From Amphiscolops sp. MND2022 (Eukaryota), in the NCBI GenBank assembly GCA_964187785.1, contig OZ076417.1, forward strand, positions 22,816,001-22,880,000: 64,000 bases of DNA, given 5' to 3'. The position numbers and the translations under genes are program-made. The notes under the pieces are model-generated. The model searched no databases. It was not told the DNA's origin and was given only the letters and a program-made list of their open reading frames with translations. Positions 35,243-63,285 of this stretch are shown here, one piece after another (position 1 is the stretch's first letter; every line of letters starts with the position of its first letter).

Positions 35243-37440
35243 TTGATAGAAGACCATATTTTCACTAACACTCATATTTACACTGATAATAGTTCAGACA
35301 ATCAATATCCGGACTATATTATTAGTAGACCACAAACTGAACAACATGAAACAATTCATCCAGATCCATCACATTTATCTGACGAAACTTTACAACAAGT
35401 TCAACAACAAAATCAAAATACGATTACTTTTGCTACTACGTTAACGATTCCAGATCAAAATACTACAGATACACATAGCTTTACAATCACTACAGATTCA
35501 GACATTCTGTATATTCCTACAAGACGAAAAACTGAAACTAATGCTAACTTGTTTCAAAGTAAAAGCGACACTATGATACATCCACTTTAAACACACAAAA
35601 TTTTAATACTACACATTTACAAACGTCTTCTCAGCAAGTACAACGAACTTATGATCCACCTCCAGTGCCACCTGAAATTTTCGCGAGTAACATTCCTCAA
35701 CTCTCCACAGCAAGGCTCATCAAATTCGAATAACAACACTCTACAAAACACTAACCAAACTCAACCTCAACAAGTGAACACAAAACCACAAACAACTCTT
35801 CGTACACCATCATAGACTCTAGTTCAAATTTCTACTAAATAACAACCTCTTTTCACTATTCATACGATTCGTAATTATTCACCATTAAAACCTACAACTT
35901 CTAGGAAACTTTCTAGACCTCCATTACCTACCTCTCCGAACAATCCACTTTCATGAAACGTAACCAGTACTAAAATGAATAATATACAACAACCATATCA
36001 CTCATCTGTAACTCAAATTAATAACACCTCTCTTCCAACAAAGTCCCTCTCTTACTCACACATATTCACATCCTTCCAATCATATAGAATCTTCACTAAG
36101 TCCTTCAACTATTAAACGAACAAACCCAAAGAGTACCATCACTACAACTTTACCACTTTCCAATACTCATAATGTACCTCCAAATCTGAATATGAATTCT
36201 CAACCAATGCTTTCTTCGACAATACCTATTTCCACTATATCTAACCCAACATATATGAACTCATCTGCTTTCACTTCAGAACCTATTAAACCCTTTGATG
36301 GCTTGGATCAAAATTATACATCTGAAGATTATCTACAACAAATTGAAGCACTAGGATGCACTAGAAGCACTACAACATTTTCACTAGGGTTACAACCTTC
36401 AGCTGACCATGAATATGAAATTTTTGCACGCTCGACTTATGGCTTTCTTACAATGTTCATTAACTGGTACATCCCTTATTTGGTACCTTCGCCTCAATGA
36501 TACTTACAAACGAGACTGGTCTGGTTTTGTAAAAGCTTTTAAAAAACAATTTTCTTCTCAAAATAACGCTTTTTGCGGTCAAGTCGAAGCAGTTACACTT
36601 GTTCAAAAGGATAATGAGGCAGTTCTTCACTTTGCCTTGAAAGCTTACAACTAGTTGAAAAAGGCTGGTGTAATGAAAATGCCTTAACAATAAACCTCAA
36701 ATATAACGAAATTTTTTAAAAGGATTACCAAAAACCTTAAAGACTGCAAATGAAAGATGAGTATAACACACTTTTACTGTATTAGAACCTTCATACCCCA
36801 GTTAAACTTGTTGACGCTGAAGATTTTGCAAATGACAGAATTCGTACACACGATCTTACTCTTGAAGTGAATAACCTTGCCACCCAAATACAGTCTCAAA
36901 ATTTTGAACAATCACAAAACGCTCAATTCATGTTTACTCAACCACAGGATCCTAACAATGAAACGAAACCTGCATATAAAACAAATTGCTCCTACTGTCA
37001 TCGAACAAATCACTCTATTTTATCGTGATTCAAACAACATGAAGATGAAAGAGAAGCATATGCAAGATCAAGGTCTCCACAAAAATCTTTTGTACAAAAT
37101 TTCTGTTCCAACTCCAATGACAAAACAAAACGAAATGGCGACAATTCGAATGAGTACTCTAACCGACGTAGCAGTAGAAGTACAGCAAGAAAGAATTTTT
37201 ATAACAAAAATAATACTTCACAGAATAGATATGGTTCTACATCTTGCGATCAGTATACTTAAGACAGAAGTACCACTGCTCAACATTATACACGCTCTCG
37301 ACATGATAATTATTTAGGAGATTCTCGATCTTATCGTTCTCCATACATATCTTAAAGATCACCTTACAGACGAGATTCCCGTCACAGATACTGCTCACGT
37401 TCATATTCAAGAGAAAACACATTTCGAAGGTAAACACATT
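35243..37440 (+). pseudogene. gag: gag of copy A (may extend upstream to about 33990)
   Basis: PIKPFDGLDQNYTSEDYLQQIEA; CCHC knuckle CSYCHRTNHSILS* near 36985-37030; Arg/Ser-rich C-terminus. Confidence 0.8.
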
Positions 37441-37599
37441 CTAACACACTCAATACATAACAGTCACAAATTTCGAACAATCCTATCAATTTTGAAGTAC
37501 ACATGTATCAACCTACACAAATGCCTAAAGCTCTAATAGCAACCAGTTGGTTCTAGTCATTCTATTCCCACACTGCAGAAAAACAAAGTAAAAATAACA

Positions 37600-40500
37600 A
37601 CCCATCACGACTAGATAGTTCATTTCTTTTAGACAGCGGTGCTTCTACTTCAGTACTTACTTGTCATACTTATTTTACTATCGCAAAACGTCTCAGAATA
37701 ACGAGTACTAATAAAACACATAATACTTCAAACCCAAAAACTGTTGCTAATCAAACAGAAGTTCCCATATTACACTATGTTACTCTCACTTTGAATGCCA
37801 CTTCTGAAGACATTTCTCGTCAATTCATTATCCCGTTTGCAGTTGCTGACATCAAACATAACATCATTGTTTCAATACTTTCCACGAATGAAGCCAGGTT
37901 CGAAAGTTTGGATATTGAATCCAGGCCATTCTTCGGAGAATATGTACAAAATATTGACACCCAAGATTTTACATAACAATTCAAACACCACTCGAAAGAC
38001 TTTCCTAATCATACCAAAATTCATCATTAATGTCCAGAGAATACCCATAATTTTCATACAATTATAGAATTATTTCTAGAACTCAAAAACATCTAAAACC
38101 TAACTCCTCCAAAATTGATCATTTTCCTATACAAAACTATAGCAGTCTTCATTTCACAACCACACCCAACAATCATTTTTTCCCACCTTTACCTCAAACT
38201 TACTTTTCTGTCATATTACGTACAACATTCAACTTTATGGAAGCATTCACTAATGATAAACCATATACCTGTGCTACAATCCTACAAAACACTACAAATG
38301 ACATCGCAACTTTACCTCCCGGAACTATTGGATACCTTGAAGTTCCTAAACGAACGAAAAACCTAAATATTACAAAGTTCATGACATCAATTCTCTAGTA
38401 CACAATGTTGCCCATACAAACCATTCTGAAATTACAGAACCAATTCCACAAACAAAATACGCTCCTCAGTACGCACATGATACATCACACTCTCAACATA
38501 TTTCTCTACACCATGTCTATATGACTGACGTATCTACATTAAATATTAAATTAAACTCAATACACAATGTTATGTTTTCTTCTCATAAAACTGAACTTTT
38601 TTTTCTACCCTTCCAAATACAAAATAAATTCAAAATTTATCAATAATTCGTTTTTCAGTTTTCTGATCTTACAGACACCAAATATGTAACTCTTTGTAAT
38701 TTACTGGTCAAACACAAAAACTATGATGCTACTCAAAAAAGATGTAGAAAAGATTTCTACTCCGTTTCGTATTCGACTCAACCCCAATGCCCAACTTCTG
38801 AGACAATGTTCGTCTAAAGTCCCAATCATTATAATAGAAACAAAACGAATGCCCTTCTCGAAGAACTTGAAAAACACAACAATATTAAACAAATCGGTTC
38901 TTCTCCTCAAATCGGTTCTTACTAGTATTTCATCCGGTGAGAAACTCTTTGCTTTTATCAGCAGTTTTTATGGTCTCAAAGGCTTCTCCAATTTTTTTAT
39001 TGAACAAATGTTTTCATTCTTCAAAACTCTTACTGACCAAGGTTCCGCTCTTGCATATATTAATGACATTTTACTCCTTTCTAACTCTAAAGAATACATG
39101 TTCCAACTTATTGAACAACTTCATATCATAAATACAAAACACAATCTCAAACTTGCTCCTGAAAAATTCTTTACCCAAAATCTATCATACGCTTGGAAGA
39201 AATCTTTATGTTGCTGACATGCTCAGTCGTTTATTTACTAAAGCTGAATTACAAATGAATTAACTTAAACATAAACAACTACCTGCACAAATTGACTTCG
39301 CAATTTTACGAAACAACACTCTTAAACCTGTGCATTAGTTAATTAAAAATGAAGAAGTCTTACAATTTTCTATACGAAATAATGACAAAGGTAACGATGT
39401 CAATTGTCAAACCTCTTGACTTGTTCTCAATTAATTCCATTACACTTTTTCAGACACAGTTAAAAACCCCTAATAAAAAGCACAATAAATCTATTTATCA
39501 GCAACCTCTTCTACTCAATGATACTGATGTCATCAGTGATGACGAAGATCATATTTACACTAGAATTCCAAAGGACACAACTCTTTTCACACCTGACAAT
39601 ACTCTTACATTTGACAACCACTCTACTATACCAAATCCCAAAACTGATACGCTCTCTACTAATGCTACAGAGACACAGCATCATATTAAACTTTCTACAC
39701 ATTGCTCACAAATCATCACTTTTTATGACCCATCCTTCATCAAATACAAATATTGTTTTCGAGGCCTTTTCCAACCTGATGACTACTCCCTAGACTTACA
39801 AACTCAATAAGCAACAATCCCAAGACCCAGTATTCAAAGTTGTATTTTTTGACTTTCGCTAAATACAAAACCTGACTCTTTGACACCTCAAATTACTGGT
39901 ACTCCCTGTTTACATGCCAAAAAAAAATTTTCTCCCAACTTTTCATCGATGATTCTACAAACTTCATTTGCCTTTATTCAAAGCATTAAAGTACTTCTGA
40001 CACACAAACAAACCTGAATTCTAACATCCTTCAACCCACTTTTAAACTCTGTCTAGCCTTTCGTCTATTTCGAACAAATTTCAATAAACTTCATGACCGT
40101 TGTCACACTGGTATAAAAGTCACATATAACACTTTCTCACAGTACCAATATATTGCTTTTCTTGAAAATTGGCGTTCCATTTTAATACATGACTGTCTTG
40201 AATGTCAAAATAACAAGCATTTCAACCAAAAAGTTCAATCTGCTCATATACAATTTTTTCCTGAACATGCTCCCTCATTCACTTACAGAATTTCCATGCA
40301 CACAAAAAGTCCTATAAATCCTCCGTCTTAGAACAAGTCGTACATAAATGTCATTGTTGAGGCCTTTAGCCACTTTGTTGTGTCAGTTCCTATAAAATCC
40401 AACAACTCAAAAACTGCTGGTAAATCACTATTTCACCTTTGGATTATCAAACTTGGTCCACTTATCTATCTTGTTACTGATCGCGGATCAGATTATATTA

Positions 40501-41033
40501 ACACAGATATGGCACAACTCTCTACTCTTATGGGTATTCGTCACTCTCCTAGAACTCCTCACTCCCCTTGGGCAAATGGACTCGTTGAAGTTCAAAACAA
40601 AAATATTGGTACACATCTTCGTATTTTCCTTCAAAAAACCCCTAAAGATTGGGATCGCCAAGTTCATATGTACGCTTACGCCCCTAATTCACAACATCTT
40701 TTTATAAACGTTTCTCCTCGTGAAACTGTGTTTCACACATGTCCTCGAATTCCACTTACCTTTGACTTGAACCTCAATCGAGACTCAAAAAGAACATGTA
40801 TTTCAAAAAGATGTTCTGGTTTGCCTGAACATTCTCATTATGACAATACCGATTTGAACCCATTCTTTTATCGTACACGTTCGAAACACTCGCCCTCAAT
40901 GGTTTCTTGCAGTAGAAACTGCTATTTTACAAAATTGTTTTACGGTAAACTGTTCAAAAAATTAACTCTCAAGCTTATATTACAAAAACACACCATAAAA
41001 ATAAACCTATTCATCTTGGAACTTTCGTGGTAG
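37600..41033 (+). pseudogene. pol: pol of copy A: protease, internally deleted RT/RNase H, integrase
   Basis: FLLDSGASTSVL (about 37625); TPFRIRL..YINDILLLS; jump from the RT end to ADMLSR; IN core LVTDRGSDY...WANGLVEVQNK. Confidence 0.88.
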
Positions 41034-42794
41034 AACCCAATTTTTCACAAGTTCAATTTTCAGACAAACTCAAACCAAAGATGGTTCCACCTTTCATACG
41101 CATAGAAACCATTTGATACCTTATTTTTCAAAAGAACCACCTCTGTATCCTCATCTTCAAAATTTCATGCGTTTTTCAGACTCCATCAAATATGACACTC
41201 CAAAACCAATTAAATATGCAAATAGTGACTGATCCCCTTTTAACTCTGATGACACAGTATAAGATGAAACCTCTTCAGAAAAAAAACATCTTTGTTTATC
41301 AACCACCAAATCCCACTTTTGAAAATACTTCATTCACTAAAGATAACTCATTCTATGAACCAATTAGAAAATCTCATCAAAATATTTTTCCTGACAGAGC
41401 ACGCCATCCATCTCAAAATGACCTTTTAACCCCTCACACTTCGCATAATCGACAAACAAAAACTCATCGAAAGTTGTGAACAATGAAGATACACAGTCTT
41501 ATCAAAAACTACCATCCTTGATACTTCTTCTGAAACATCTCCTTCTGCTCCAAACTTACCATCTTCTAGTTCTGAATGTCAATTAACTATCATATCCCAA
41601 CCTCGCATTGTGGAAATGTTGCCTCCGTCCAAACGACCAAAGTCATACATTCTACAGACATCTTCTAGAACTCTTTTTCCTCCTACAACTTCATACACTG
41701 GAAGACCAAAAATATCTGAAAAACCTACAACTCCTAGGTCTCAACCACAAGCCGTAACAGTACAAACTCCTTTATTTCATGTACCTAATCCTGAAACTGT
41801 AACAAAATTTGTTGATTGTAAACAACCTACTGCTACTAAAACAGCACGACTACAACCTCAAAAAGATATTCTACACATACTTGACACTGAATACCCAACT
41901 ATTTTACACTTTCCCTCTTCTGAAACAGGATCCTCTACGAAATCACAAATCTATCCTACTTTAAACTAAATTAGACAGCAATTTACTCTATATAGTCTTT
42001 TAGAAACCACTTCACGCGACTACTTACCATAACAAAAATTTCAAGTTCCATCTTAGTTCCTCCACATCGGTACAACCTTGAACAACTTGCGTCACGTAGA
42101 CCTAGTTCTGATACTTCCACTCTAAACTTTTCTTCATTAAAGTAACTCGGCACTTCGTCTTTTACATCAACACGCCCAACCCCTTTCATCTGATTCAACC
42201 TCAACCCACTCCTCAGATTTTGTTCCTAATTTTACATCAGGTGTTGATACTGATTCCTTACTCTCTTCAGACGTTCAAACAGCGTACTTTTCTGGTAATT
42301 TCTTTCTGAAGTACTTATTCTTACTCCTGTAGCGCCACACGTACGAATTCGTAGTAATTATGTAGAAATTTTGTAGAAATTAAACAGAACAATCTAGACC
42401 TCCAACTCGGTTTACCGACTACCCAATACGTGTTGATGGTACAACTGTATACGAACCTCAAACTGATCCTCGTTTCACTATGCTCACAGAACGATTCATT
42501 AACGATACCGACACTCTCTCAAACAAAGAGAAGAAACAGAACTAAAAAGACTTCAAAATCCAAATTCGAACTTGAATTTGAAGTCAAAGTAAAATTTTTA
42601 GGTTTGAATCCACATCCCATACTTCACGTTCCTAAACCTGAAGAAAAAACACCTTCTGCCCCTTTCATGGTCACATACATTGAAATTCACGATGATCCTG
42701 ACGGCCCTGATATAACTTATGGTAATTATATTTTGTAACCCATACTCTGGACTTACATATACAATCTCCTTTTAGTACAAAGTTGTTCCCTTCT

Positions 42795-45133
42795 TTGACA
42801 AATATAACCTTTTCTTTCTTACTCCTATATATTATATTACACACGCTATTCCTATTGAACTAACTGATACTGATAGTTATCTCCCGCCTACGACCCAAAT
42901 ATTACGAACCTTAAGCTTTCTCATTATACCTGTGAAAAACAACATAACTTTTGTCAATTTGATCTTTTAAATGTTCTCTAGGTTCAATTAAAATAGTTTT
43001 GTTGAAAGAACTGTATAGAATCAGAACACAACAACACTTTACTTGATCCTCTAGAATGTAAAAACTTGTATAGATATCTTAATGGTCCAACAACAAAATT
43101 TTGAACAACTTTGATTACAATAGACCTTTACTCTTCTTGAAGATCATTATTTCTCAGGAACAATTGGATCAAATTCAAACTCCTTTTACTGTTTACTGGT
43201 ACTTTCACAATTAAGCCTGCTGATAAAAATTGACTTTATGATCCATTACGAAATCCTCTTCACGACTGTCCAGCCCATCACCAACTTGAAGTTACCTTAG
43301 TCAGTTGGACATTTTCAGTTTCCGAAGTAGAAGTTACAAATGATGACGCTGAATGTGTAATGATAGTTGATGGTCACACACTACCATGTTACTTCGGCGA
43401 TAGTTTTTGTAAACCACCACGAAAACTCCTTCTACCTTAGTTTGGTTTAGCGATGAATTTTGTCTCATTTTTACATTAAAAGATTTGTTGGACGAATGAC
43501 TAAAATAGAAGATAGATACTGGATTGAAACTGACTCTTTTGTACACACTTCAGTTCCTAAAAAATCGGACACCACTACTGGTATTAAAGGCACACCCTTT
43601 CCTTGTGTACATGCTCCACATACACGAAATTCACCTAACCGTAGTTTTTCACGCTACGAAGTTTTTCCACATTCTTAAACATTTTATAGTAACCCAGAAC
43701 CTTTTTATACAACACAAAATTCGGACCTTTTTGTTACATATATTGATGGTTTCAATATGCATACAGGACAGCTAAACACTCAATCTGTAATTAATGAAGT
43801 TATCTCAGAGAAACTAGTTTTCGACACCAACAAAAATAAATACGTTTTTCCTGCACTCAATGTTCCAAATATTTTTGCTATCATTGACTATGATGCACAT
43901 GTCAACACAAAAGTTGATTACGCTATTAATCATGTCTTCCACTCCATGACAAAACTAGAATTAAATACCCTTCAGAGTGAATTAGAACGAAATCAACTCT
44001 TTACTAAACTTGCAATGTCAGTAAAAACCCCTCAGCTTGCTGGATTCTTTTCAACAGGAATTAGAGGCAACTTCGTTTACATAGAAGGTTCCACTGCATG
44101 GCCCATGATTGTCCAATTTTCCTTTCAACAATATACAAAGCTGATGGTTGTTTTGATTGCATTCCCATACAGTTCAAAGATACTCTTATGTACGTTGATC
44201 CTATCACCAGACAAACCTACGATAATGCTACTCCTATAACATGTGATAATAATCCACGAAACAGTTTTGAACTAGATCCAGATGCGGATTATCAAGACTA
44301 TTACATTCTTAGACCCGAACCGATAAAACGGAAACCACAATTTATGTTCACGCCATCTCAAATTAAAACTACAATACGACCCAATGCATTTACAGCTCAA
44401 GATGCTGTTATATATTCTAATGCAGATCTTGACCATGTTTGGAACAGAATCTTATTTCCAAAACATGGTGACACTCTTCAACTTTGAGGAAAAGCTCTTA
44501 GTTACTCTTTAATTTCTTCAAATACACCAGATTATGCCTATTCTCCTCATGAAAATCCTTCTAGGACATTACGTATTGGACTACAGGATAAACTCTTTAA
44601 CTTAACCCCACTTTTTGCACCCACAAGGTTCTCTGATGCTTTTATTTCATTGTTTGGATACCCATGTTGTATCTGCACACAAGGGGAAATTTTTTGACAT
44701 TTCATTTATTACAAACAATCTTACCACTTCTTATCAAACTTTACAGAACACGTTCGATAAAGTATAACTTGAAAAATATATCACTTTTCTTAGTTCGATA
44801 GCACATGGTTTTTTCAATATTCTTACAGCTGAAATCGTCAACGACCTAAAAGATGCTCATGTACAAAGACCATTACCGTCCATTAGAAGTTCACACCAAC
44901 ATTCCTTGTCAACTATAACTGAAAACCAAGTAGTTGAATCTTCTTACAATTCAGACGATCCAACAAATCCTTCGACTAAACGTTCTGGAATTATTTCACC
45001 ACCTTTCTTTACAAAGCGTGCAAAACGAGTTCCAAAGATAGCAAAATTTAAAGTCTTTCCGAAACGGAAAAGATCCTTCAATCAACAAAGTAAAAAAAGA
45101 CAACTTCATCAACAATACTTTACCATTACATAA
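42795..45133 (+). pseudogene. env: env-like glycoprotein of copy A (class III, chuvirus-G-like pattern)
   Basis: Signal-like TNITFSFLLLYIIL; SHYTCEKQHNF; ELERNQLF.KLAMSVKTPQLAGF...EGSTAW.YDCP...CFDCIP...MYVDPITRQTY...ITCDNNP; hydrophobic TM segment near 44640-44730; basic tail. Confidence 0.8.
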
Positions 45134-45208
45134 TTCTACATTCGCTCATTTTTTTTACTGTCAATCCAAAGTCAAATGATTATCCTTTAAGTACCACTTC
45201 TGCCAATA

Positions 45209-46700
45209 ATGAGAATAAAAGTCCAGTCAAATTGTATTCAAAAACAAACTACCCTTTTACTCAGTCAGTTTTTTAAACCAGGTCATTCTGACTTTTCACT
45301 TCTCTGCCGCCTACTTGGAACAACTTCCTCTTTCAACAATTTCTGCACTCAACATTTTCTACACTCTACAAAATTCTCTTCACAAATAAAATTTCCTACA
45401 ATACCGTCTTCAAACATTGAGCTCCTTCCTCCAATAGAAATCACCCCAGTGATAGAAATTACTGTTCACCGTCCAACTAATCCGACAACAAAAGTTAGAG
45501 TGTTAGCACATCCCCAAAGACTGCTGATAAAGCAACTCGTTAGTTTACACTTTCTCATATAATTTTCACTATAACACAAGCCCAATTAGATCCCCAAAAC
45601 CAACTTGGACAAAATACTACAGATCTCACAACTCAGCCTTTATTTAATGATTATCCAGTCTTCTTCTTGGAAGCCCTGGAACAAGATCAATCTACAATTA
45701 ATCATGAACAATTTGAACAACATAATAACTCTCCGAACAATCAAAAATCTCCAGAAATCATTTCAAATGACACATCAGGCAAAACTCCACCAACACCAAA
45801 AAAGAAATATCCGGCTTTTCTATCTTCACCCATGTTACCACCTCTTCTATCTTCAAAACCTTCACCCTCTACGAATAGAGATGACCATTTGATAGCAATC
45901 CTTTCTCAAGATCGCTCCACGTTTAAGTCACAGTTCACTTCTTTGTACATGCATCCTACTGATTACATTTTCAAACTGTATGTTAAATATCAAGCTTTTT
46001 TTACATTCATCGCCTTTAAAATAATGTCTCCATACCAATACTGGCTTGACAATGTTGTCAAAAGATTTTCTCTCCAGTTTAACTTTCTTCGTTCATCTAT
46101 CTACGATTTAAAAACTGACGAAAATGATCCTTCATTTCTCTCTATTGCACAAAAAGCCACCTATCAAGAACGTATACTAATTTTCTACAGTACAAAATAC
46201 CATAGAACCAAATTTTTGACAATTATAAATACATTTATCCTTCCACAATGACAAACCTACATACAATTGATCACTCTAAACTTACGGGATTATTACGTAA
46301 CTTTGTTTCCATTAAACAATATTTTTGCCTTCTTCCTCATAATGATACATGACCACTTATTGTACCTCAAGATTATCCCATCCATTTCGATGAGTTCTTG
46401 GTGCCTTGCAACAATCCTACACAAATTGTCGAACCACTAACTGTTTTTAAACATATTGTTTTTTCACCTCCTGGCCATAAAGACACCTCATATTAGACAG
46501 CACTATATAAGCAATCGTACTCCTATAATGAACTGCTCTTCATCTCTGCAAAAGTCATTTCATTCATGGTCAAACAAAAAGAGAACACAAAGCTACCCAT
46601 ATAGAACAACATCGACCTCCTAGAACCTCCCAAGCTACTTCTAACAAAATTACTGTCATGTTAAGACTTCGCACTCTTTGCGACATAACTGAAAAAAATG
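45209..46700 (+). pseudogene. Fourth ORF of copy A, unknown function (homologous to 51000-52535)
   Basis: ORF 45667-46251 with SLYMHPTDYIF, then downstream IKQYFCL..HNDT*PLIVPQDYPIHFDEFLV. Confidence 0.6.
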
Positions 46701-49480
46701 AACCATACAAATAAACTTCTTCTGATACACCTCTCACAACTCTTACTCGAAACATAGCCGGGTATGAACGAAGTTGAAAACTCTCACAATCACTTAATCT
46801 GGATTCTCGAAGATATCCCAATCTTCACAAGCAATTCAAGCCGCTCTGGAATCTTCGAACAGCCTTTTGTCTTCTATTTAACTAATCTTAATACTCCACA
46901 GGTAATACAAATATTTGTTTTTGGAGGGCTCCTGATTTTCTGGTATTCTTTCTTGATTTTTGTACCCATGATACAGGTAACATTCTTGAACTTTTTTCCG
47001 GTATACTACATCTAACGTACACCTAACATTTCTGTTACAATTCAATTATTTAGAAACCATTTTTCACCAAAATCTATCTAACTTTTGTTACACTCTGCCT
47101 TATCGTACATCAAACATGTCATAACTTCTTTTGAACATCAAACTTCTAACACTTGAATTTTCATTATAAACTATATGATACAAATCAAAAAGCACCATCA
47201 AAGATCCACGTGTTCAAACTTCTTTTGTTCTAGAAACGTCTCTTCCTCCACCTCATTGTTTGTTGCCCCTTGGCTCACACCGTTAACTACCACATTCTTC
47301 TACCAGGATCTCTCTAGTTCGGCTTCTTATTCTTCGTCTGCTTCTTCCACAGTGCCAACTGTCTTTTACCAAGACATACCAATGGCTTGTTATTCCGTTC
47401 TTGAATGGCTTCTCCAGAAACTAAAACAATGGCACTTGTTAATTTTCACAATGCAAACACTCTTAAAGCTGCCATATTCCACACAATGTCCTTAAAATTA
47501 TCTTTTGAAATAAACAATAATGTAATCACGCTGGCCATTTACAGGTCCTTTCTCAAAGTCTCATACAACGTTTGCAAAATCAAACAAAAAAATCTGCTTT
47601 GAATAATATCACCGTCTACATGTTTATGGTAAGAATGTAGCCATCTGTGAAGCGACATACTGTTCTTGTCATCTATCCTCCTTTACTAGTAAGGATCAAT
47701 TTTTTCAAGCCGCCCTAGAAGACTCACGTCAAGGATCTAATGCTAGTATGTAAGGTTTTGGCTAGCATCAGAAACTTCAGAAATACGTCCCTGAAGTACT
47801 TCAAGCCTTCCCGCCATCAAAACATCCGTTTTACTGACCTGATGACGACTTCTCTTCATCACTACTTCACTAGTCTTCTAAAGTACTTTTTTTTGTCAAG
47901 AAAATTTGTTGGACTTTAGATATCTTATTTCGGAAGGACAATACTTTCAGGAAGACTCTAACAGAGGTGCAGTATTAGGTTTGAAGGGAAGACAAATTGA
48001 TGGTGAAGAGTAAATTATCGTTGTGAAGAGATATAAATCAGTTTAGTGCTTTACAGTATTGGCAATGGTATTGGATACAAATTAGGTAACGCTTGATTAC
48101 ATCAAAATTCAGAGTACAAATTTCTAGTCTAGACATCGAGCAAGGAGTGGGAGGATGAATGATCGAATTTAGATTACAGGTTTATCATCCGACCTGGTTT
48201 TGAAACAATATATATCTTCAACAAATTGGGTTATCAGAGGTGGGTCGGTCAGGTATGTGAATGTATATTTGAGGTTGGCTCTAATCGGTTGAGGTGGTTT
48301 TAAATTGTTTAGGAGAGTTTGGTTTATGGTGTATAGGACTGAGAGAGGACGTGAGGTTATGAATTATATTTTACTGGATTTGGATATGTTTAAAATTTTC
48401 ATCAAGTTGTAGTACATGAAGTTGTCTTATTCTTTCCTTACGTGAGATTCGGGCGAATATGCAATTTTTATTTTGAGATCATTAAAAAGGATCGGAATTA
48501 GGTTTTAATTTTCATATTGAGTTGAAGTGAGGTTTAATAAGGTATGATGATTGGGTTAATTATAGTTTAACATAAGATTTTGAAATGTTGCCTATGCATT
48601 TTTTGAAGTTTTATTCATTTTATGAGCTGTGTATGTTCCGTGGGGGTTTTGAAAGTTTGAAAGTGCGAGATAGTGATTGACAAGTGAAGGAGTGGCGAAG
48701 AAAAAGCGAAAAAATTCTTAGGTTTCATGTCAACATCTTTTGCGTCTTTTTGTTAAAAACAAAAATTAGGTAATTTGAGAAGCCTTGGCGGCAAGAAGGC
48801 GGCCTGAACAAAGTCAAAAGGTTCAAAAACAAGTCATTTATTAGTCAATGTGTCTTCATATTTTCATCATGTGAAGCGGGTAAAAGAGTAAAAAGAAGAA
48901 CTTTTTCATATGGAAGTGACCATTAAATTTTTCATTTGATTGAAAATCAAACATACAGTGAAAACACTTTCAATATGTGAACTAGGAGAAGTAAAAAGAA
49001 AGTTAGAGTGCCAGTAAAACCGAAGTTACTGACATGTAAAGTTACGTTTTTTGGAGAAACGGGTAGAAATTGGAGTTTCGTGTAAAAAAATGTTTTAAAA
49101 AGGAGATGAATTTCTGAACAATTGTTTAAAACACCACATTTATAGTCAGAGGGATTGTAGTGAACATGCTAAGATAATAAGTTAAGATAAATAGTGGCTC
49201 GAAATTAGAGGTGAACAAAGTTAAAATTTATTAGGTCAAAAAACCAACTTTTTACCAAGTTTTCTAAAGAAAAAAGTTTAATAAAAGACTATTATGCAAA
49301 AACACTGTGGGAACAAACAAAATGAAGAAAGAATGATAGAGGGAGGCACTGATGAAAAAGTTTAAAAGAAAAAATGTTCTTCACAGTGATGAAATTGAGT
49401 ATAATTTTCGAAAAAGTACAGTATATTTTTGGAATGGAGTTATGTCAACTTCTTGAAGAGAGGTTAGCATCGGAGAAAGA

Positions 49481-50010
49481 TCAAAAAGGGAATTGTGGAA
49501 TGGGGGGTGTAAGAGGTTCTATTCTAATGGGAATTAGCGCTGGGGATAAAGGGGGTAAATGAAATGGGGAGGGATTGCAAAAACTATGTGGCAGGTGGTA
49601 ACGACGTTGGGGAAAACAATGAAAACGATTAGAAAAATTATGAGGGGATATTTGGACGCTTAAGGCAGGGAATTGGGCGACTTTGTACGTTGTAGATTTA
49701 AATTTGGCCAATTTGGGAGCGTTTGAAAATGGTTGACTAAAATATTTACATTTTGAGTAACTTTATCTAAATTAGCATCTCGTTCAGTTAACAATTCACC
49801 TAAATAAAGTTCGTACAATTTCAGTGCGTCGTAATACCGAGTTAAGGTTTGCTTGTAGACGGCAGTGTGGACTATTCTGTTTGTTGGAGTTCCAGCTTCA
49901 CCAAGCAGTTGAGGACGTTTTGGGTGACGGGGCTTTCGCCTTTGCAAGTCCTGGGTTAACTGTCGAACAGCGGAGGGTTTCTACAAATTGGGGGAAGAGG
50001 CGATAGCATC
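49481..50010 (-). other. Additional sense-strand ORF remnant in the 3' region of copy B
   Basis: QRRKPRHPKRP...YKQTLTRYYDALKLYELYLGELLTERDANLDKV; more GC-rich than its flanks. Confidence 0.3.
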
Positions 50011-50999: not shown

Positions 51000-52535
51000 G
51001 AGTAGGAAGTGAAGGGTTGAGAATTGGAGAAGAGAGATAGGGTGAAAGACGATTTTCAGAAGAAACAGTGAATGGCGGAGTTTAAGGAGAACAAGTGTTT
51101 TGAGAAAGTCATTGACATGTATGGCAGAGAGCGTGAGAGATTGAATATCATTACTACGGAGTTGGAGGAGTTTTTGAAGATTGCAACAGCTATCTAAAAT
51201 ATGATTGAGAATTACAAAAGGATCGGTATTAGGAGAAGGTTCAGTATGTTGACGGAGAAGGTTCAGAAATTCAGTGACAAAATTGTCAGTTGGGCATGAA
51301 ATTGAGTTGACACATACATTTGGGTTAACAGCTTGAAGAACATAGGATGAAGGAAGTTTTGATACAAAGGTGGAAGGAGGAACAATGGAAAAACCTTTGT
51401 TAGGAGTGATATCTTTTGGAAGTTTTATTGAATTTATCCGTTACTTTATTAGTGTCTGGAAAGCATTTGTATTGTTTTTTAAGAATAAAGGAATGAAGTT
51501 TAACAAAGATAAAGTTCAATTGTGCAATTGAGTAGTGTTTATGAACGAGTGAAGTGTAGAGTGAGCGAGAGTGATCATCGAGAGAACTTCAATGATTTTA
51601 CCTATTCTTGGGAAGAAATTTGGTTCTTTAGTAGGGATGTGATGCTCGAGAAGAAAATCATCATTAAGATTGAGTGCTTCGTGTGGAACCAAAAGTGGAC
51701 GAGTGGGGTCACGGTATGTAGCAAGCATGTAGTATTGTTCAATTGGGTCATAATTACGGAATGTACCAATAGTATAGAGGTGATTAAGGAGTAGTGAGAA
51801 TGAAAAGAAAATGGTGAAGTGATTTTAGAAACTTGAATTTTGAGGGTGTTTTTAAGAAGTGTTTGATAGGTTTGGTGATAAAGTTTTTTGACGGAAGAGC
51901 AGTGGAAGTATCATTGGCCTTAGTAGTAAGATCATGTTGAGTGGGTTTTTCGAAAACTGAATTGGAACTGAAAGAAGCGAATGCATTTTTTTGCCAGGAT
52001 AAGAATTGTTCTAAGTTTTTGGAAGCATATGCAACATATTGGTCGAAGTATTGATCTTGCGGAAAACGAAATTTATAGGTAGTAGGGGTCATGTAAAGAG
52101 AAGGAAGATTAGCTTTGAGATTAGGGTGCGTGCGAAGAAATTTGTTAGTCATAGTGTTTGTTTAAGAAGGATTTTTTACAGGATGAAGTACAGGAGGAAG
52201 AATACCCGAGTCGATGAAGACAGGAACTTCAAGTATATTATATTTTTGGTGGGAACAGTATAGGTGGCATTATCAATAGTTATATGGAGGTTACTAGGTG
52301 GAGGAGTAGGTAAATGGCGAGTGTTAAGAGTAGAGGAGTTAGGTTGAAGATTTACAAATGAAGCATTAGAAGAGGGTGGTTTAATTTCATTAGTGTGTTC
52401 AGGAGTACAGATGACTTCAAGATTGATCGGCTCAAAGTTATGAGGAAGTTCAAGAGTACCAGATTTAAGAGACAGAGGGGGAGAAAATGAAGCAGTGCTA
52501 GAGAGGAGTTCTTCATCACAAACAGGTGAGGTCAT
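51000..52535 (-). pseudogene. Fourth ORF of copy B, unknown function
   Basis: MTSPVCDEELLS...; SLYMTPTTYKF; IEQYYMLATYRDPTRPLLVPHEALNLNDDFLL, matching ORF4 of copy A. The lower boundary is approximate. Confidence 0.6.
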
Positions 52536-53079
52536 TTTAGGATATATACTCTGTTAAAAATATATCAGAAACATAAAATGTACCAAAAAGTTTTGATGAG
52601 AAGATTCAGATAGTGGAGACGTACAATCTAGAAAGAAGATTTTCGGAGATATAAATGACGGTTGATTAGAGAATAAAGATATAGCAAGACAAGTGATATG
52701 TAGAAAATTTCTAGAAAGATCATTGAAAAAATGCCTTTTGGAAAGTTATGTTAGAGTGAAATCAAAAGTAGAGTTTCGAAAATAGCAACTTAACGATGAG
52801 AAGAAAATATGAAAAGTGATGAAAGTGAGGAAGAGAAAATGGTCTAAAGTGATTCAGGTGGAAAGCGACATGATGAATATATTTTAGCGTGGCTTTCAGG
52901 TGGATTGAATATACCATTGACAGACGGTAATGGGATGTCATTAACTTTCATAGGTGGTGGAGTAGGAGTATAGTTTTTTGGTTGATTGCCATACGTTGTG
53001 TATAGGGAAACTATTAGAAGAGCTGTCAAAGTTGGTATCTTCAGGAGATATGGCATTATGTAAATGAGAATGAGAAAAC

Positions 53080-55599: not shown

Positions 55600-56089
55600 T
55601 AGAACGATTAAAACTGAGCGGTATATTTTAAGAATGTGAGAGTATTCAAAAATGTGGTAGATCCTTGAAGGAGAAATTCATCAGTCATGGTGTTTGTTTG
55701 AGAAGGGTTTTTAGCATGTTGAAGTACAGGAGGTAGGATACCAGAACTAATGAAAACGGGATTTTCAAGGATATTATACTTTTTCGTAGAAGGAAGAGTA
55801 TAAGCAACATTGTCGATGATGACTTGGAGGTTAGTAGGTGGAGGAGAATGTGAGAGGCGAGTTTTGAGATTAGAAGAAGAGGTTGAGTATTGGTTGAAGA
55901 GGATGATTAAATATCAGATAGAGTTGTTTCAGCAGTAGGAATAATTTCAAGAATAATGAGATCGGAGTTATAAGTAACTTCAAGAGTGCCGGATTCAAAA
56001 AAAATTGGTAATAAAAAGGCGATGCTGGAAAGGAGTTCTTTTTCATGAGTAGAGGAGGTTATTACTTTTAGGTTAGAACTAATTTTGGA

Positions 56090-58251
56090 TGTCAGAAAAA
56101 CTAGGTGACTAGTTTCAACAGGTGATTAGTTTTGGATTTAGTATGAGGAGGTGTATCAGAATCAGAGTTAAGATCGGAGGGCTAAATCATAGCGGTCATC
56201 ATTGTTTTGGTTAAAGTTCCAAACAATCCATAACCAAAAACAGAAAGAAGAGAGATATGTTTTTTAAGAGTTTTCTTAACAGTCAAGAAGCGATAAAAAA
56301 CTAGGGAGTGTGTTGAGAGCAAATTGAAGAAAAAGAGCAGTGAAAAAATAAATTCCACATTGGTTTAAACTATAACATGGATGACCAAAGAGTATAATGA
56401 AGGCATCAGTGAACCATTCAGGTGAAAAGAAAAGATTTGAGTTTAACATATATTCATGAAGATCAATTCTGGGTGATTCATAATGACTATTTTGAGGAAT
56501 CCAGAGGGTTGTTAACTCATAAATTCACAACTAATGGCTTTACCAAGGAGTTGTAAGGTATTATCGGAGTGTTTTGAAATAAAACTCGATTCCAAAAATG
56601 TTTGAGTCCTTTTTGAGAAAAAATATCTGCATCTTAGGCAGTAAAATTGTTTGGGCAAAAGTAGTTTGAATTTGAGTTGGTTCGAATAAAAGAGGAGGGT
56701 CTTTCTTTAAAAAGGTTGTGGAATTAAGACATAGTATTGATCTGTGTCAGGGTCAAGAGCAATAACATTTTGAGGGTTATTTTCACATGGAACCTTCGAC
56801 GTATAGAAAATGACTACGATTTTGGGTGAGGACAAAACCAGCAAGTTGTGGATTTTTAACAGACATTCCGAGGATGATTAAAATTTGAGTTCGTTCGACT
56901 TTACAAACAGTGTGAAGATTATTTACTTCAGCAACAGACATTGTTTCAAAGACATGATTAATAGAGTAGTCTATTTTAGTATTTATGTGAGCTTCATACT
57001 CAAAAGTGGCAAAATCATTAGAGGAGTTTAAAGAAGAAAAGAAGTTTATTTTGAGCATGTACAGGTTTACCGAAAACGAGTTCAGTGGAGAGTTTATTTA
57101 AATGTTAATCTACGAGCAGTTGAAGAGGATTGCGTTTGCCAGTATGCACATTGAATTCTTCGTTATATGTATTAAAGAGGTGAGGTCATTTGTAGTATAT
57201 AATTGTATAAGTAGTCGTATATGTTGTATGAGTAGTGTATAATAAAAGGTGTGAGTTTATTGCAAAAATTTTACTTTCGGGGAAGACTACAAAACGGGAG
57301 AGTCGAGTTTGAGATTTAGAGTCATGGTAGGAAATTTCCGAGGGAATGTGAAATTTTATAATTAATAAAGAAGCGTTCAGTTTCAAGTCAATAACGGTTT
57401 TTGTGTTTAGACATACGTCCAATGAAAGAGTGGATGGAGATAACTAAACAAAGATCTTCGGGGAACCAAACAGTTGTGAATGGAGTTTGAATGGCAAGGC
57501 AGGGTAAAGTATGACCATGATAACTGATTTTTTGTTTTCTTTATGATCATAGGTTAATTCGATTTCTCGAACGATTAAAGACCAGCTATCTTTTTCAATT
57601 ATATACTCATAGCGTTCTCAACAAACAGCCTTTTTTTAAGAGTTGAGTTTAAAACAAGTTGAGAGTTGGCTATCCAAGCAATAGCACCGTAGTGAAAAGT
57701 GTTAATTTTAGTTTTACCGAAAGGAGGTTGTTTAGTTTCAAGCAAGCGTTGTTTTGGAATATCATCAAAATAGGTTAAGGAGTTACTGTAATCAAAAGCA
57801 TTAAGTTGAGGGATGTCAGTGCCATTTAGGTGACCGATAGCATGTTTGCATTTCAGGAGGTCTAAAGTACGAGGGCGCTCCATTGTAATTTTGTGGTAAT
57901 CAGTACGATCATAGCGGCGATATTTGTAATCAAATTGTGCACAAACAATTTAACGTAATCTTCACAACTCCAAGCTTTGAGGCGTTTAATTTTAGCGCGG
58001 ACAAAAACGTTAGCAATAGCACGAGTGCTTCCAAATGCTGAAGGGGCTTGAGCACAATGTTGTAATCGGGTTAAACTGAACCGACGGAGGTTGTGTTGTT
58101 TAGAACAACCATAGTGAGGTACTAAGAGGTCAGAGACATGAGGCTCATTAGGTTCTACTATATCAGTAGAGAGTCAAGTGAGAGAATGAAGAGAAAAAAA
58201 ATTTGAGGAGGAGGAAAGCGAAAAAACTGAGTGTTTGAAAGAGGAAGTCAT
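56090..58251 (-). pseudogene. env: env copy 1 of element B
   Basis: MTSSFKHSVFAFLLLKF signal; HYGCSKQHNLRRFSL; MERPRTLD..CKHAIGHLNGTD; CKVERTQILIILGMSVKNPQLAGF..YVEGS; TM segment near 56300-56400. Confidence 0.82.
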
Positions 58252-59399
58252 GAGAGGAAATTAAAACTGAGCAGTATATTGAGGAAGGTGAGTGTGTTTA
58301 AGAAAGTAATGGATCCGTAACGGAGGATTATCACTTACAATACTATTAAGACTAGTGACAATAAAAGGTTGAGGGATAGATTTAAAGTTGACAGTAGTAT
58401 GAGAAAGGATAGGATGAGGACTTAATTTATGGATTTGAGCTGTGATTTCAAATTTAATTTCAAGGTTTGTAGTGTCCAACCGGTGAAATTCTTTTTGACG
58501 ATGTTCGTCAGAAATATGTGTATTGGAGTTTAGTTTATGAGTGGCGGAGTATAAAAATCGGGGATCTTGACGAACACTAGTGACAAGAGTATTTATGACA
58601 ATTAGAGGATAATCAACACAGTTAGGTGTAGGGGGAGTAGAGTATTGATCAGTGGTGAATTCAATTCTGAGGAGATGAGAGTCGGAAGAAAGAACACTGT
58701 TTCTTTGAGAAGTGGTTCTAGAAAAGATATGACCGGTATGATTAAAAGAAGAAGGTAAAGATCGATGGGAAAAGCAACGTCAACACCAGAGGTAGGAATA
58801 TTGTTATTAGAGGAGAAAGATTCGAAAGAACGAGGTTGAGTGTGGTGTCTTACTTAAGAAGAAACAGTGCTTACAAGTGAAGGAGTGGGAGAAGGAGAAA
58901 AACGAGGGAGTAAAACGACGGAAAATGGCTAATGCACTTAGAGTTGTCAAATGTCAAGCATAATTAGGTGTCTAGACAGGAGACAGTATAGGACACATCT
59001 GGCAGTTAATGCATTTGGGAGATGGATTTAGTTTCGAGGAAGGAAACTAATAATAGGTTTCGAAGTATTGAATTCTTTGGGGGAAGGGAACGTAAGTTGT
59101 ATGGAAATTGGGGAGGTCGAATGTGAGTGGGTAAAGTTGGAGCATCAGAGAAAGGTTTAAATGTACAGTCAGGTGAGTCAGCAATACGGGGAAAGATTTT
59201 TGGAAAGGAGGTGGAATGGTAGATAGGATGGTGGATTTTTTCAAAATCAGAGTCAGTAGAGTTAAAGGAATCATCGAAATTATCATGTGGAACAGTAGAA
59301 GGAGGAAGATTTTGATAAGTAGGGGGAAGGTGAGAATATGGTTTTGATTGAGCAATGGGTTTAACAGAAGTGTGCGATTGAAATTTTTCAAATGGATTA

Positions 59400-62300
59400 T
59401 CATCATCGGGTGGAGGGCAGTTAGAATTAATATCTTGTATGAGTCAGTATCAAGAATATTGGAAGAGAAGGTGTTGAATGATATAGACGGAGGTATGGGA
59501 AAATAATGAATTCTTTAGGGTAGTATTGTATAATAAGATTTCTATGAGTGTAGAATGTAGAACCATCATGGGCAATATGTTCATAAGTAACATCAGAGAG
59601 ATGTTATATAATTTAATATGGACCCAGACGAAGGGGTTTGAGTTTATTCGAGAATATAACAGGTTTAAAATTGGTGTGTATAACAGAAGTGTTCGGAGGG
59701 AGTTGTTTTAAGTGTGTAGTTTCAAAGGCGGAATTTTGTGAGTTTAGTTTATTAGTAATATGGCGATGAACAGTAGAATAGATTTCTATCATTGCGTGTT
59801 CAGCATAGAGTAGCCATGGAGAAACAGGTTTGTTTATAAGTGAACGAAAAATGGATTGAGATCTTGATCACAATATTGTGTGTGAGGAGGAAGTGAATTG
59901 CAATTTGTGCATTACAAGATTTAGAGGAGTCGCGTGTTAAATTAAGGGAAAGTTTCATGGGATATGAGGATGAGTATGAAAAACAATTTGGAATGGGGAA
60001 AGTTTAAGTTTAAGATAGACGATTAGTATTATGAGCATAAGCGTACATTTGAGTTTGGAATGATTAACTATTTGGAGGGTTTCGAAACATTGACGGAAGT
60101 TTTCAGAGAAAAGCTTTACAGTGGGTAAAGGAGGAAGGATCAAAGAATGGTGGTGAGCTTGTAGAAGTGGATTTTATGGGAGTTTGGATAATAGTATTAG
60201 AACCGAGACTTCATTAAGAAGAGCGTAGTCATTATTGGAATTTAAAGTTGAAGAGTTTTCGATGTTAGTTAAAATGTCTTGAGAGAGGTGAGAGAATCAT
60301 CAAAATTGTGTTGTTGAATTTCAGCTAAGAGAGAGTGGATAATATGGAATGATTGAGGTTGTTGTGAAATTTGGTGAAGAATCCTTTGAGTACCATGATC
60401 ATCATCTTCCTACGAGTCAATTTCATTGAAAAGAGCGTTTTCTGGGAGAACGTTTCAACTTAATTTTTTATGTTTTTTTTCTACTTATTCAAAAAGAGTG
60501 AGACCGATTGAAAGGAGACTGAATCTAAGTGAGTGTAAGTAACAGTATTTCCTTTGTCTAAAATTTGGAGTGTGAGTTTATCATCACCATCAAGATTGGG
60601 TGGAAATCATTTGTCTGAGTTGTTAATACAACTTCATGATCAACAAGGCAGGGGATTTGTTTCAATGAATTATTGGGTTTGAGTTGAATAAATTCAATAA
60701 GCGGAGGAAGGGTTTTCTGTTGTAATTGACACATTTCATTTGTGATTTGAGAAAAATCTCGACTGAGCATATCAGCAACAATCAGATTTGTACCGGCTGA
60801 GTGAACAATTTGGAGAATGGAGAGTTTGGTTAGTAACATTTGGACTTTATTATGTCTTGGAGTTAGATTTCTTTTACGAGTGAAGAGAAAAAAGGATTGG
60901 ATTATGATCTGTAAAAACAGTGATTGCAAACTTAGAGCCATTGATAGTAAATTCATATTGTGAAAGAGCAAAGGTTATAGCGCAAAGTTCTCTATCAAAG
61001 GTAGAGAGTTTTTGTTCTTGAGTTCTTAAAATTCCAGAGTTATAATCAATAATTTACATTTTGTTATCGGAGTTGAAATATTATTGAAAAAATATTGCAC
61101 CTAGACCAACTAGGGAGGCGTCAACTGTAATATGAACGGCGTGAGTTGTATTAGGGATTGCAAGTTCAGCATCTTTTGAGGGGTAAGATTTCATTAAAGG
61201 GTTTGTCTAGTTCTGGAGTCACTTCGAAGGAAATATCGTCACTGAGGAGGGTATAAAAACGTTTAAAAGAGATGAGGAGTTTGTTCATTAAATTTAAGTA
61301 AAAGATCATTGAACCAATAAATAGCATTAGTTCAGTTTTAGAGGTGACAGTTTTCAATTTGTGTATACAGTCAACTTTAGATGAAATTGGTTGAATAGTA
61401 TTTTTGCCAGTTTCATGTCCAAGAAATTTGACAGTGAAGAGAATATGAAAAGATTTTTCAGAAGCTATTTTATGATTGTTGGAGCTACAGATCTAGTGTA
61501 ATTGTTCGATCAAATCTAACATATGAGTTTTGGTGTGAGCAAGAAGGAGAATATCGTCAATATAAAAAAGTATAAAGCCTTCATCAATGAGTTTTTGAAA
61601 AAAAAGAATACATTTGTTTGGTAAAAAACTTAGGAGTCATTCAAGACCGTGAAACCCTCGGATAAAAGCATACTATGTCTAGTAGAGTTTATCTTCAGAT
61701 GAGAAACTAGTAAGAGAGATGGTTTCTTCATGTAGAGGAGCATGTGCTTGAGCATACATGAGGTCAATTGCAGACTTGAATTTTTTATTTGCGCGTGCAA
61801 GTTGAGGAGCTAGAGGTTCTATAGGCCAAGATTCAAAGGACTGATCGGTGTTAGAGTTTAAATGTCGAGCGTCAAGAACTACTTTTATCGTATCTCCTTT
61901 GGGGATACTAAAGAGAGGATTTTAAAAAGTTGTACCGTAAATGAATTTATCAAAGGGTTTGGAGCCAATTTGTCTAATAATATTATGGTGTTCTAGTTCA
62001 TCGAGTAGCTTTTTAATTTTTATCACTATAATGAATTGGGACTTTAGTGGGTCGTTGATTTTGGAGTTTAGCGCTTGCTTTTAGGCGAATTCTAAAAGGA
62101 GTGTCCATTTTACCAACATCATTACGATGAGTAGCATAACAATGTTGATATTTCACCAAAATGGAGCAAAGTTTTAAATATTCGTCATCAATGACGTCAG
62201 AGTATTGAAAAATATATTTTTTTGAGAAATTGATGAACATCTGGAAAATATGGTAAAGATGGAAGAGGGTGTTTTGAAAATTGATATGGTCGTAAATTAT

Positions 62301-63200: not shown

Positions 63201-63285
63201 GGTAGAAGGAGCGATAGCGTTAGCTTGAATATTTGAACTTTGAGAACATGAGGAGGTGTTTGGATGTTACATATTCATTTCAAGT

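What the first reader, a model, noticed from the sequence alone, without database searches (positions are those of the whole stretch)
45209..46700. Conserved unknown fourth ORF downstream of env in both retrovirus-like elements
Seen: copy A has SLYMHPTDYIF and IKQYFCL...D.(*)PLIVPQDYPIHFDEFLV. Copy B (51000-52535) has SLYMTPTTYKF and IEQYYML...DPTRPLLVPHEALNLNDDFLL. The motifs are in the same order and the same position after env, despite high divergence. Known: Gypsy elements normally have at most gag, pol and env. Inference: this is an accessory gene like those of complex retroviruses, or a matrix-like protein co-captured with the glycoprotein. I do not recognise the family.
Basis: partly seen in the sequence, partly recalled or inferred. 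Interest (0 to 1): 0.7.

Follow-up and report, generated by a model that had tools for sequence, protein, structure and literature searches.

The report
Extra gene after retrotransposon envelope gene
Two decayed virus-like jumping elements in an animal genome carry, after their envelope gene, a real extra gene of a protein family not found in the libraries searched, which most likely helps the element control its own expression, as accessory genes do in complex retroviruses.

Summary
Confirmed, with corrected coordinates. Both Ty3/gypsy-type elements have a class III env (PF24664) followed about 300 nt later by a homologous gene, ORF4: A ~45571-46851 (+), B 52535-~51080 (-). Both window copies are broken.

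Unbroken relatives of 410-600 aa exist. They include clusters of 1036, 502 and 252 members and about ten subfamilies with 26-53% core identity between the main groups. Unbroken A and B forms share 40% identity over 307 aa (E 6e-60).

Layout: acidic disordered N-terminus, basic patch, conserved ~265-aa core, C-terminal long helix, no membrane segment. Folding was poor (pLDDT 53-56), except a ~45-aa SH3-like barrel whose nearest matches are Tudor/KOW/chromo barrels, all non-significant. There was no significant Pfam, NCBIfam or PDB match, and only one marginal PHROGs hit.

A second conserved unknown coding stretch lies between pol and env, so ORF4 is probably the fifth gene.

Best reading (0.4): a soluble, probably oligomeric regulator of the element's transcription or RNA export, made from a spliced mRNA. 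Rivals: anti-silencing factor (0.25), matrix-like protein (0.15), captured nucleoprotein or phosphoprotein (0.1). Function is inferred, and the host is unidentified.

The parts
45571..46851 (+). ORF4, copy A (broken: about three frame changes and in-frame stops)
   Evidence: tblastn of unbroken P0046/P0047: aa 15-222 at 45571-46164, 212-367 at 46128-46595, 383-448 at 46616-46813, end to 46851; 47-65% identity, E to 1e-64
46255..46395 (+). Part of ORF4-A coding the SH3-like (Tudor/KOW-type) beta-barrel (approximate)
   Evidence: Mapped from relative P0271 aa 152-198 (pLDDT 72-83; matches) through
51080..52535 (-). ORF4, copy B (broken: about three frame changes and stops); ATG at 52535
   Evidence: tblastn of unbroken P0006/P0005 covers aa 1-491 in four pieces, 50-69% identity, E 1e-114
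55671..56065 (-). Second, 5'-only ORF4 copy (aa ~4-134) between the two env copies of element B
   Evidence: tblastn P0005 E 3e-25; 70% nt identity to 52136-52536; differences by codon position 7/10/23, P=0.004
52551..52568 (-). Branch-point / pyrimidine tract / AG, splice-acceptor-like, 16 nt before the ORF4-B start
   Evidence: Seen directly. Weak: the pattern was set after seeing it, occurs 8 times in 15.5 kb (shuffles 10+/-3), and has no match at the equivalent place in A
45276..45570 (+). ~295-nt spacer between env and ORF4 in A (308 nt and 67% pyrimidine in B, 52843-52536)
42760..45270 (+). env of element A: class III / gB-type fusion glycoprotein, broken (ends approximate)
   Evidence: PF24664 E 2e-7 at 44065-44484; tblastn of env parts of P0073-P0075
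52845..55595 (-). env copy 2 of element B, broken
   Evidence: PF24664 E 6.7e-5 and 7e-4; tblastx to env A
56130..58200 (-). env copy 1 of element B, broken, tail shortened
   Evidence: 72-74% nt identity to env copy 2; tblastx
42150..42740 (+). ORF-X of A: second unknown conserved coding stretch between pol and env, broken (5' end approximate)
   Evidence: A vs B E 2e-6 and 2e-5; 0 of 1000 shuffles, z 8.4 and 7.9
58261..58850 (-). ORF-X of B (172-aa open stretch 58779-58264)
   Evidence: no Pfam, NCBIfam or PDB match
36000..42140 (+). gag and pol of element A (PR-RT-IN order), broken
   Evidence: PF03732 E 1e-4, PF13975 E 0.05, PF00078 E 0.009, PF17921 E 0.001, PF00665 E 3e-9
59000..64000 (-). 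gag/pol of element B, broken, runs off the window
   Evidence: Collinear tblastx matches to A, 29-70% identity; 0 of 4 pieces scanned gave a retroelement Pfam hit

Best explanation
ORF4 is an accessory gene of a lineage of envelope-bearing Ty3/gypsy elements with the order gag, pol, ORF-X, env, ORF4. SHOWN: it is protein-coding, 410-600 aa when unbroken, sits behind env, has diverged with the element, has been under purifying selection, and has no membrane segment. INFERRED: it is translated from its own spliced mRNA, because it is the last gene and lies behind a ~300-nt spacer. It most likely acts as a soluble, oligomeric, nuclear regulator of the element's own expression. On this reading the basic patch takes it to the nucleus, the C-terminal helix multimerises it, the core with its SH3-like barrel binds the element's RNA or chromatin, and the acidic disordered N-terminus recruits host transcription or export factors. 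That is the job of Cer1 CERV or of retroviral Rev/Rex/Tas-type proteins: an element that splices several downstream genes must still transcribe and export its unspliced genome.
For: Coding and conserved. Unbroken relatives; 81 of 279 stored relatives are full length; 11 of 15, 11 of 15 and 6 of 15 listed members of three big clusters are >=400 aa, at median 97.0, 94.6 and 96.8% identity. Core aa 96-360 has 23 residues invariant in 12 of 12 subfamily representatives, while the termini drift. Third-position bias P=0.004. Linked to env beyond the window: 6 of 279 relatives are natural env/ORF4 junction products. Soluble: highest 19-residue hydropathy 0.9-1.2 in 4 of 4 tested. Basic patch in 72 of 81; net charge -4 to -12 in the first 90 aa of 8 of 8. 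Disorder at aa 32-93 and long helix at 421-471. Barrel modelled in both runs; nearest neighbours are Tudor, KOW, PWWP and chromo barrels. Precedent: CERV is a 517-aa nuclear protein from a spliced mRNA, needed for genomic RNA export (PMC10309623).
Against: No function was tested. Models are poor overall (mean pLDDT 52.8 and 56.3; pTM 0.29 and 0.34). The barrel matches are non-significant (Foldseek E >= 1.1; Z <= 3.5 over ~40 residues) and tie with myosin, UBE2O and cold-shock barrels, so they show a common fold, not a function. There is no arginine-rich RNA-binding motif (11-15 Arg in 410-560 aa for 7 of 8 shown). The basic patch is short and absent from subfamily C. The export-signal-like pattern (44 of 81) is loose and had no null. 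The acceptor-like motif is not enriched and is seen in B only.
Confidence: 0.4

Rival explanations
1. ORF4 is a counter-defence factor. Its Tudor-like barrel mimics or competes with host Tudor or chromatin readers (piRNA or histone-mark silencing), or it blocks a restriction factor, as VANC does in plants or Bet/Vif in retroviruses (the latter two recalled).
For: The top Foldseek rows are PHF1/PHF19/MTF2 Tudor domains (probability up to 0.77, rmsd 1.2 A over 31 columns). The gene is kept across about ten subfamilies with very large copy numbers. A Tudor-bearing Gypsy is described in a brown alga (PMC12477816, passages).
Against: The matches are non-significant (E 1.1-1.6; Z 3.4 tied with non-Tudor barrels). 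Only two aromatic residues in the barrel are invariant (Y255, Y269), so a methyl-binding cage is doubtful; this was not tested residue by residue. A highly conserved core fits a fixed partner better than an arms race (inference).
Confidence: 0.25
2. ORF4 is a particle protein, a matrix- or tegument-like linker between the Env tail and the capsid.
For: It lies directly behind env and is duplicated with env in element B. Env has a long cytoplasmic tail. A-B divergence is similar to that of env and pol.
Against: No Met-Gly start (0 of 81), PPxY 1 of 81, P[TS]AP 0 of 81, acidic rather than basic N-terminus; a loose YPxL pattern was in 16 of 81. No hydrophobic segment. In mononegaviruses the matrix gene lies upstream of G (recalled), which fits ORF-X better than ORF4.
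Confidence: 0.15
3. ORF4 descends from a negative-strand RNA virus gene (nucleoprotein or phosphoprotein) captured with the glycoprotein and now serves as an RNA chaperone or packaging helper.
For: Env belongs to PF24664, which covers Monjiviricetes glycoproteins. The size of 410-500 aa fits a nucleoprotein, and disorder plus coiled coil fits a phosphoprotein (recalled). In chuviruses G lies between N and L (PMC7642597, passages).
Against: The best-modelled part is a small beta-barrel, whereas these nucleoproteins are all-helical (recalled). gB-type env has been with Gypsy pol since early animal evolution (PMC13524379), so no recent viral cassette is needed.
Confidence: 0.1
4. The similarity is chance, or the region is non-coding 3' sequence.
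For: Both window copies are broken.
Against: Shuffle tests, hundreds of unbroken database members and third-position bias.
Confidence: 0.01

Closest known systems
HSV/gB-type env-carrying Ty3/gypsy elements ('ancient errantiviruses', Chary and Hayashi, PMC13524379)
   Same: gag, PR-RT-IN pol and a class III glycoprotein in gag-pol-env order, in an animal genome, in many copies
   Different: That paper treats three ORFs. Its main text has 0 hits for 'ORF4', 'accessory' and 'unknown function', and four family motifs were absent from its 7 held supplements (those files may hold no sequences). Here there are two further conserved genes.
Cer1 and its CERV protein, C. elegans (PMC10309623)
   Same: LTR element with a ~500-aa accessory protein of no outside homology, several domains joined by linkers, and a helical multimerising part
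   Different: CERV is spliced partly from gag-frame exons and has a Cys loop and a G-protein-like domain. ORF4 is a separate gene behind env with no conserved Cys. No sequence link was tested directly.
Complex retroviruses with accessory genes behind env (spumavirus bel genes, deltaretrovirus rex; listed in PMC2238898)
   Same: Position 3' of env; probable spliced expression
   Different: Different family (Retroviridae) and different env class; no significant Pfam or PDB match to any of their proteins
LTR elements with extra ORFs: bdelloid ORF3s (PMC5408684), planarian Burro (PMC6431247), MDG1 sORF1/2 (PMC11952523), Anakin BEL-Pao with chuvirus G (PMC7642597)
   Same: Capture and retention of extra genes by LTR elements
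   Different: Those are recognisable enzymes or domains, short ORFs upstream of gag, or env alone. None seen is a 450-aa unknown gene behind a class III env.
Tudor / KOW / PWWP / chromo (SH3-like) barrels, e.g. PHF1 Tudor
   Same: About 40-45 residues superpose (Z 3.4, rmsd 2.8 A, 43 aligned)
   Different: Non-significant, no sequence match, first strand poorly modelled, cage not shown

Membership tests
Ty3/gypsy (Metaviridae) env-carrying element | gag with retrotransposon capsid domain | tested here: met
   PF03732 E 1.1e-4, just under the curated cut-off, in A
Ty3/gypsy (Metaviridae) env-carrying element | pol order PR-RT-RH-IN | tested here: met
   PR (weak), RT and IN in that order in A; RNase H was not detected in the broken pieces; B is collinear
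Ty3/gypsy (Metaviridae) env-carrying element | class III / gB-type env after pol | tested here: met
   PF24664 E 2e-7 in A, 6.7e-5 in B
Ty3/gypsy (Metaviridae) env-carrying element | paired LTRs, primer-binding site, polypurine tract | tested here: inconclusive
   No LTR pair for A and no purine run of 11 or more behind either ORF4; A's 3' end abuts B near 47878, and B runs off the window
Ty3/gypsy (Metaviridae) env-carrying element | RT phylogeny inside Ty3/gypsy rather than BEL/Pao | not tested
   No reference RT set was at hand; Pfam gag and integrase hits are of the Ty3/gypsy type
Viral matrix protein | matrix fold | tested here: inconclusive
   Models of low confidence; searches
Viral matrix protein | membrane-targeting N-terminus or late-domain motif | tested here: not met
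   Met-Gly 0 of 81, PPxY 1 of 81, P[TS]AP 0 of 81, acidic N-terminus 8 of 8; loose YPxL 16 of 81 without a null
Monjiviricetes nucleoprotein | sequence or fold match to N | tested here: inconclusive
   No Pfam or PDB profile hit; models too poor to exclude
Tudor / Royal-family reader | SH3-like barrel | tested here: inconclusive
   Barrel at pLDDT 72-83; Foldseek E >= 1.1, Z <= 3.5
Tudor / Royal-family reader | conserved aromatic cage | not tested
   No residue-level structural alignment was available; only Y255 and Y269 are invariant aromatics in the barrel
Rev/Rex-type export factor | arginine-rich RNA-binding motif | tested here: not met
   11-15 Arg per protein in 7 of 8 shown and no Arg-rich run in the alignments; so not a member, at most a functional analogue
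Rev/Rex-type export factor | leucine-rich export signal | tested here: inconclusive
   Loose pattern in the last 90 aa of 44 of 81, no null
Rev/Rex-type export factor | oligomerisation, nuclear shuttling, binding to a response element | not testable with these tools

The most novel reading that the evidence does not exclude
These are 'complex' invertebrate errantiviruses with two lineage-wide accessory genes, and ORF4 is a transposon-encoded counter-silencing or chromatin/RNA-reading factor whose Tudor-like barrel subverts host piRNA or histone-mark silencing. A 2019 review knew of no transposon-encoded factor against the piRNA pathway (PMC6719617, passages).
Probability: 0.15. Interest if true: 0.85.

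Novelty: new variant of a known kind. Interest (0 to 1): 0.58.

Why it matters
Env-bearing Gypsy elements are usually described as three-gene 'simple' retrovirus analogues. This lineage has kept a ~450-aa gene behind env, and probably a second between pol and env, through deep diversification and large recent expansions. That parallels the step from simple to complex retroviruses in another family. ORF4 is a protein family with no significant match in the libraries searched and with many natural unbroken members. It is therefore a tractable candidate for how a very abundant element manages RNA export or escapes silencing, about which little is known in animals.

Tried and rejected
Library searches that found nothing significant:
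- Pfam: 46 window pieces (none for ORF4), 5 relatives, 8 relatives plus one downstream piece (best E 0.016), 16 barrel fragments (best E 0.06).
- NCBIfam: 0 of 8.
- PHROGs: 1 of 4 at E 5e-4 to an unknown family, not repeated in the others.
- PDB sequences with four ORF4 profiles: best E 0.065, a designed coiled coil. ORF-X: 0.
- Phage genomes: none. GTDB genomes: 30 pattern matches, none confirmed.
- Rfam: 0. tRNA: 0.

Fold searches: the full model gave only generic coiled coils, Z <= 6.3, and nothing at E <= 0.001. The core model gave nothing at E <= 0.001 in PDB or BFVD and Z <= 4.5. No matrix or nucleoprotein stood out, which does not exclude them.

Readings rejected:
- Start at 45209: no homology.
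- Two overlapping genes with stop-start coupling at 46248: unbroken relatives are one ORF.
- A shared further ORF behind ORF4: only scattered hits of <= 23 bits.
- LTR pair for A: none.

Host lineage: a recalled guess (acoel-like worms) could not be tested, so no host is claimed. All listed relatives are unnamed ENA records. The 541 weaker hits were not shown, so remote relatives in other hosts may hide there.

Literature: 8 searches found no description of this gene; subscription papers, Repbase and Dfam were not covered.

Full report
Setting. The window is animal DNA (a calcium-binding EGF repeat stretch at 12865-14910) packed with decayed LTR elements. Element A lies on the + strand, with gag, protease, RT and integrase pieces at about 36000-42140 and a PF24664 (Monjiviricetes-type, class III) env at about 42760-45270. 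Element B lies on the - strand from the window end to about 48000 and is collinear with A. The two meet tail to tail near 47878, where GC skew flips. No LTR pair was found.

Observation. The A and B pieces align at E 3e-9 and 4e-6, and 0 of 1000 shuffles reached either score (z 11.7 and 7.1; wrong-frame decoys z -0.4 to 3.5). The piece starting at 45209 is unrelated to ORF4. Against unbroken relatives, copy A maps to 45571-46851 and copy B to 52535-51081, each with about three frame changes and some stops. A third, 5'-only copy lies at 56065-55671, between two env copies in B.

Unbroken relatives. A broken B piece found 3 proteins of 490-499 aa among 1575 candidates. An A piece found 37 among 906, mostly 413-475 aa. 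A profile of 13 divergent members found 38 among 5673, including a remote 602-aa protein at E 2e-16. An exhaustive profile search gave 691 representatives at E <= 0.001, of which 150 were shown, mostly fragments. Clusters at 90% identity hold 1036, 502, 252 and 161 members; these may include repeated assemblies of one host. Of 15 listed members in each of three clusters, 11, 11 and 6 are >= 400 aa, with median identity 97.0, 94.6 and 96.8%, which suggests recent expansion with the gene intact. All records with a listed source are unnamed ENA proteins, so host and host range are unknown. Unbroken A and B proteins share 40% identity over 307 aa, E 6e-60. A tree of 30 rows places the window's A pieces with the A group (100/100) and its B pieces with the B group (98/95); the bootstrap had not fully settled and 10 rows were under half filled.

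Selection and linkage. Among 12 subfamily representatives the core (aa 96-360 of P0046) is 26-53% identical between the main groups (63-82% within the A and C groups), with 23 invariant residues, while the termini are far less conserved. Between the two B-type copies in the window, differences in two ungapped blocks fall 7/10/23 on codon positions 1/2/3 (P = 0.004). Six of 279 stored relatives are natural env/ORF4 junction proteins, one from subfamily D, so the link to env holds beyond this window. The DNA context of unbroken copies could not be read.

Anatomy. The N-terminal 90 residues are rich in Ser, Thr and Pro and acidic in 8 of 8 shown; a basic patch precedes the core in 72 of 81 full-length proteins. 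There is no hydrophobic segment in 4 of 4 tested. AlphaFold2 was weak: mean pLDDT 52.8 for the whole protein and 56.3 for the core. Both runs built a small three-stranded barrel around the most conserved motifs (pLDDT 72-83 in the second). Its nearest structures are PHF1/PHF19/MTF2 Tudor domains by Foldseek (E 1.1-1.6, rmsd about 1.2 A over 31 columns) and, by VIA-align, Tudor, UBE2O, PWWP, chromo, KOW, myosin and cold-shock barrels tied at Z 3.0-3.5 over about 40 residues. This points to an SH3-like barrel but is not a family assignment. The C-terminus is a long helix (aa 421-471) that matches only generic coiled coils. No library gave a convincing hit (see Tried and rejected).

Expression. 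ORF4 is the last gene found and follows a spacer of 295 nt (A) or 308 nt (B). In B a branch-point, pyrimidine tract and AG ends 16 nt before the start. The motif occurs 8 times in 15.5 kb, as shuffles predict, was defined after inspection, and is not matched at the equivalent place in A, so it is only suggestive. Spliced expression is an inference.

A second extra gene. Between the end of pol and env, A (about 42150-42740) and B (about 58850-58261) share another coding stretch (E 2e-6 and 2e-5; 0 of 1000 shuffles) with no Pfam, NCBIfam or PDB match. An unbroken env-derived protein begins with its own hydrophobic leader (P0073), so this stretch is probably a separate gene. No homologue search was left to check it. 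Being upstream of the glycoprotein, it is the better matrix candidate (gene order recalled).

Mechanism. I favour a soluble oligomeric regulator of the element's transcription or RNA export (0.4). The coding status, conservation, position and lack of a membrane segment are shown; splicing, nuclear location, oligomerisation and RNA or chromatin binding are inferred from the layout and by analogy with CERV. The absence of an arginine-rich motif means it is not a Rev/Rex family member. Counter-silencing (0.25), a matrix-like particle protein (0.15) and a captured nucleoprotein or phosphoprotein (0.1) remain open.

Literature seen. PMC13524379: abstract, first parts of sections 5 and 6, passages, and two term searches of its 7 held supplements. 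PMC10309623: abstract and section 9. PMC5408684: abstract and outline. Passages only: PMC6431247, PMC2238898, PMC6719617, PMC12477816, PMC6338049, PMC7642597, PMC12440569, PMC11952523 and PMC6451197 (not used for any claim). Extra ORFs in LTR elements, including downstream of env, are known in general. Eight searches found no account of this gene; the library lacks most subscription papers, bioRxiv supplements were closed, and repeat databases were not searched.

Verdict. The gene is real and of an unassigned protein family, in a known kind of element with an unusually complex gene set: a new variant of a known kind, interest 0.58.

Noticed in passing
window 42150-42740 (+) and 58850-58261 (-): Second unknown conserved coding stretch (ORF-X) between pol and env in both elements, with an acceptor-like motif ending at 58718 in B. 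It is a better matrix candidate than ORF4; no homologue search or fold was left for it.
   Followed up: partly
window 58200-52845 (-): Element B has two env copies (72-74% nt identity) with a partial ORF4 between them. Database proteins P0073-P0075, P0137, P0199 and P0278 are similar env/ORF4 junctions, so this block recombines often.
   Followed up: partly
window 50200-49660 (-): Protein-like open stretches (100 and 106 aa) about 900 nt behind ORF4-B; possibly another gene. No convincing counterpart in A and no Pfam hit beyond one weak match.
   Followed up: partly
window ~548-9240 and ~22070-28070 (-): Two further Ty3/gypsy elements of another type, 67% identical to each other, with RT, protease and integrase hits; no env was looked for in them.
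   Followed up: no
window 12865-14910 (-): 681-aa open stretch with 14 calcium-binding EGF repeats (E 2e-98), probably a large host exon.
   Followed up: no
window 32121-32591 (+): Isolated retroviral-type protease fragment upstream of element A (weak PF13975), from another decayed element.
   Followed up: no
window 31028-31108: 38-nt inverted repeat, 97% complementary, with a 5-nt loop.
   Followed up: no
window 33458-33631 and 17926-18066: Four 36-nt repeats spaced 44-49 nt near the 5' side of element A, and a three-copy 47-nt tandem.
   Followed up: no
window 33000-47878 and 47878-64000: Strong strand-specific C-over-G skew (0.2-0.5) marks both elements and flips at their junction.
   Followed up: partly
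protein P0283 (602 aa, 7 members): Most distant ORF4 relative, with a longer N-terminal part and no C-terminal coiled coil; useful for profile searches.
   Followed up: partly
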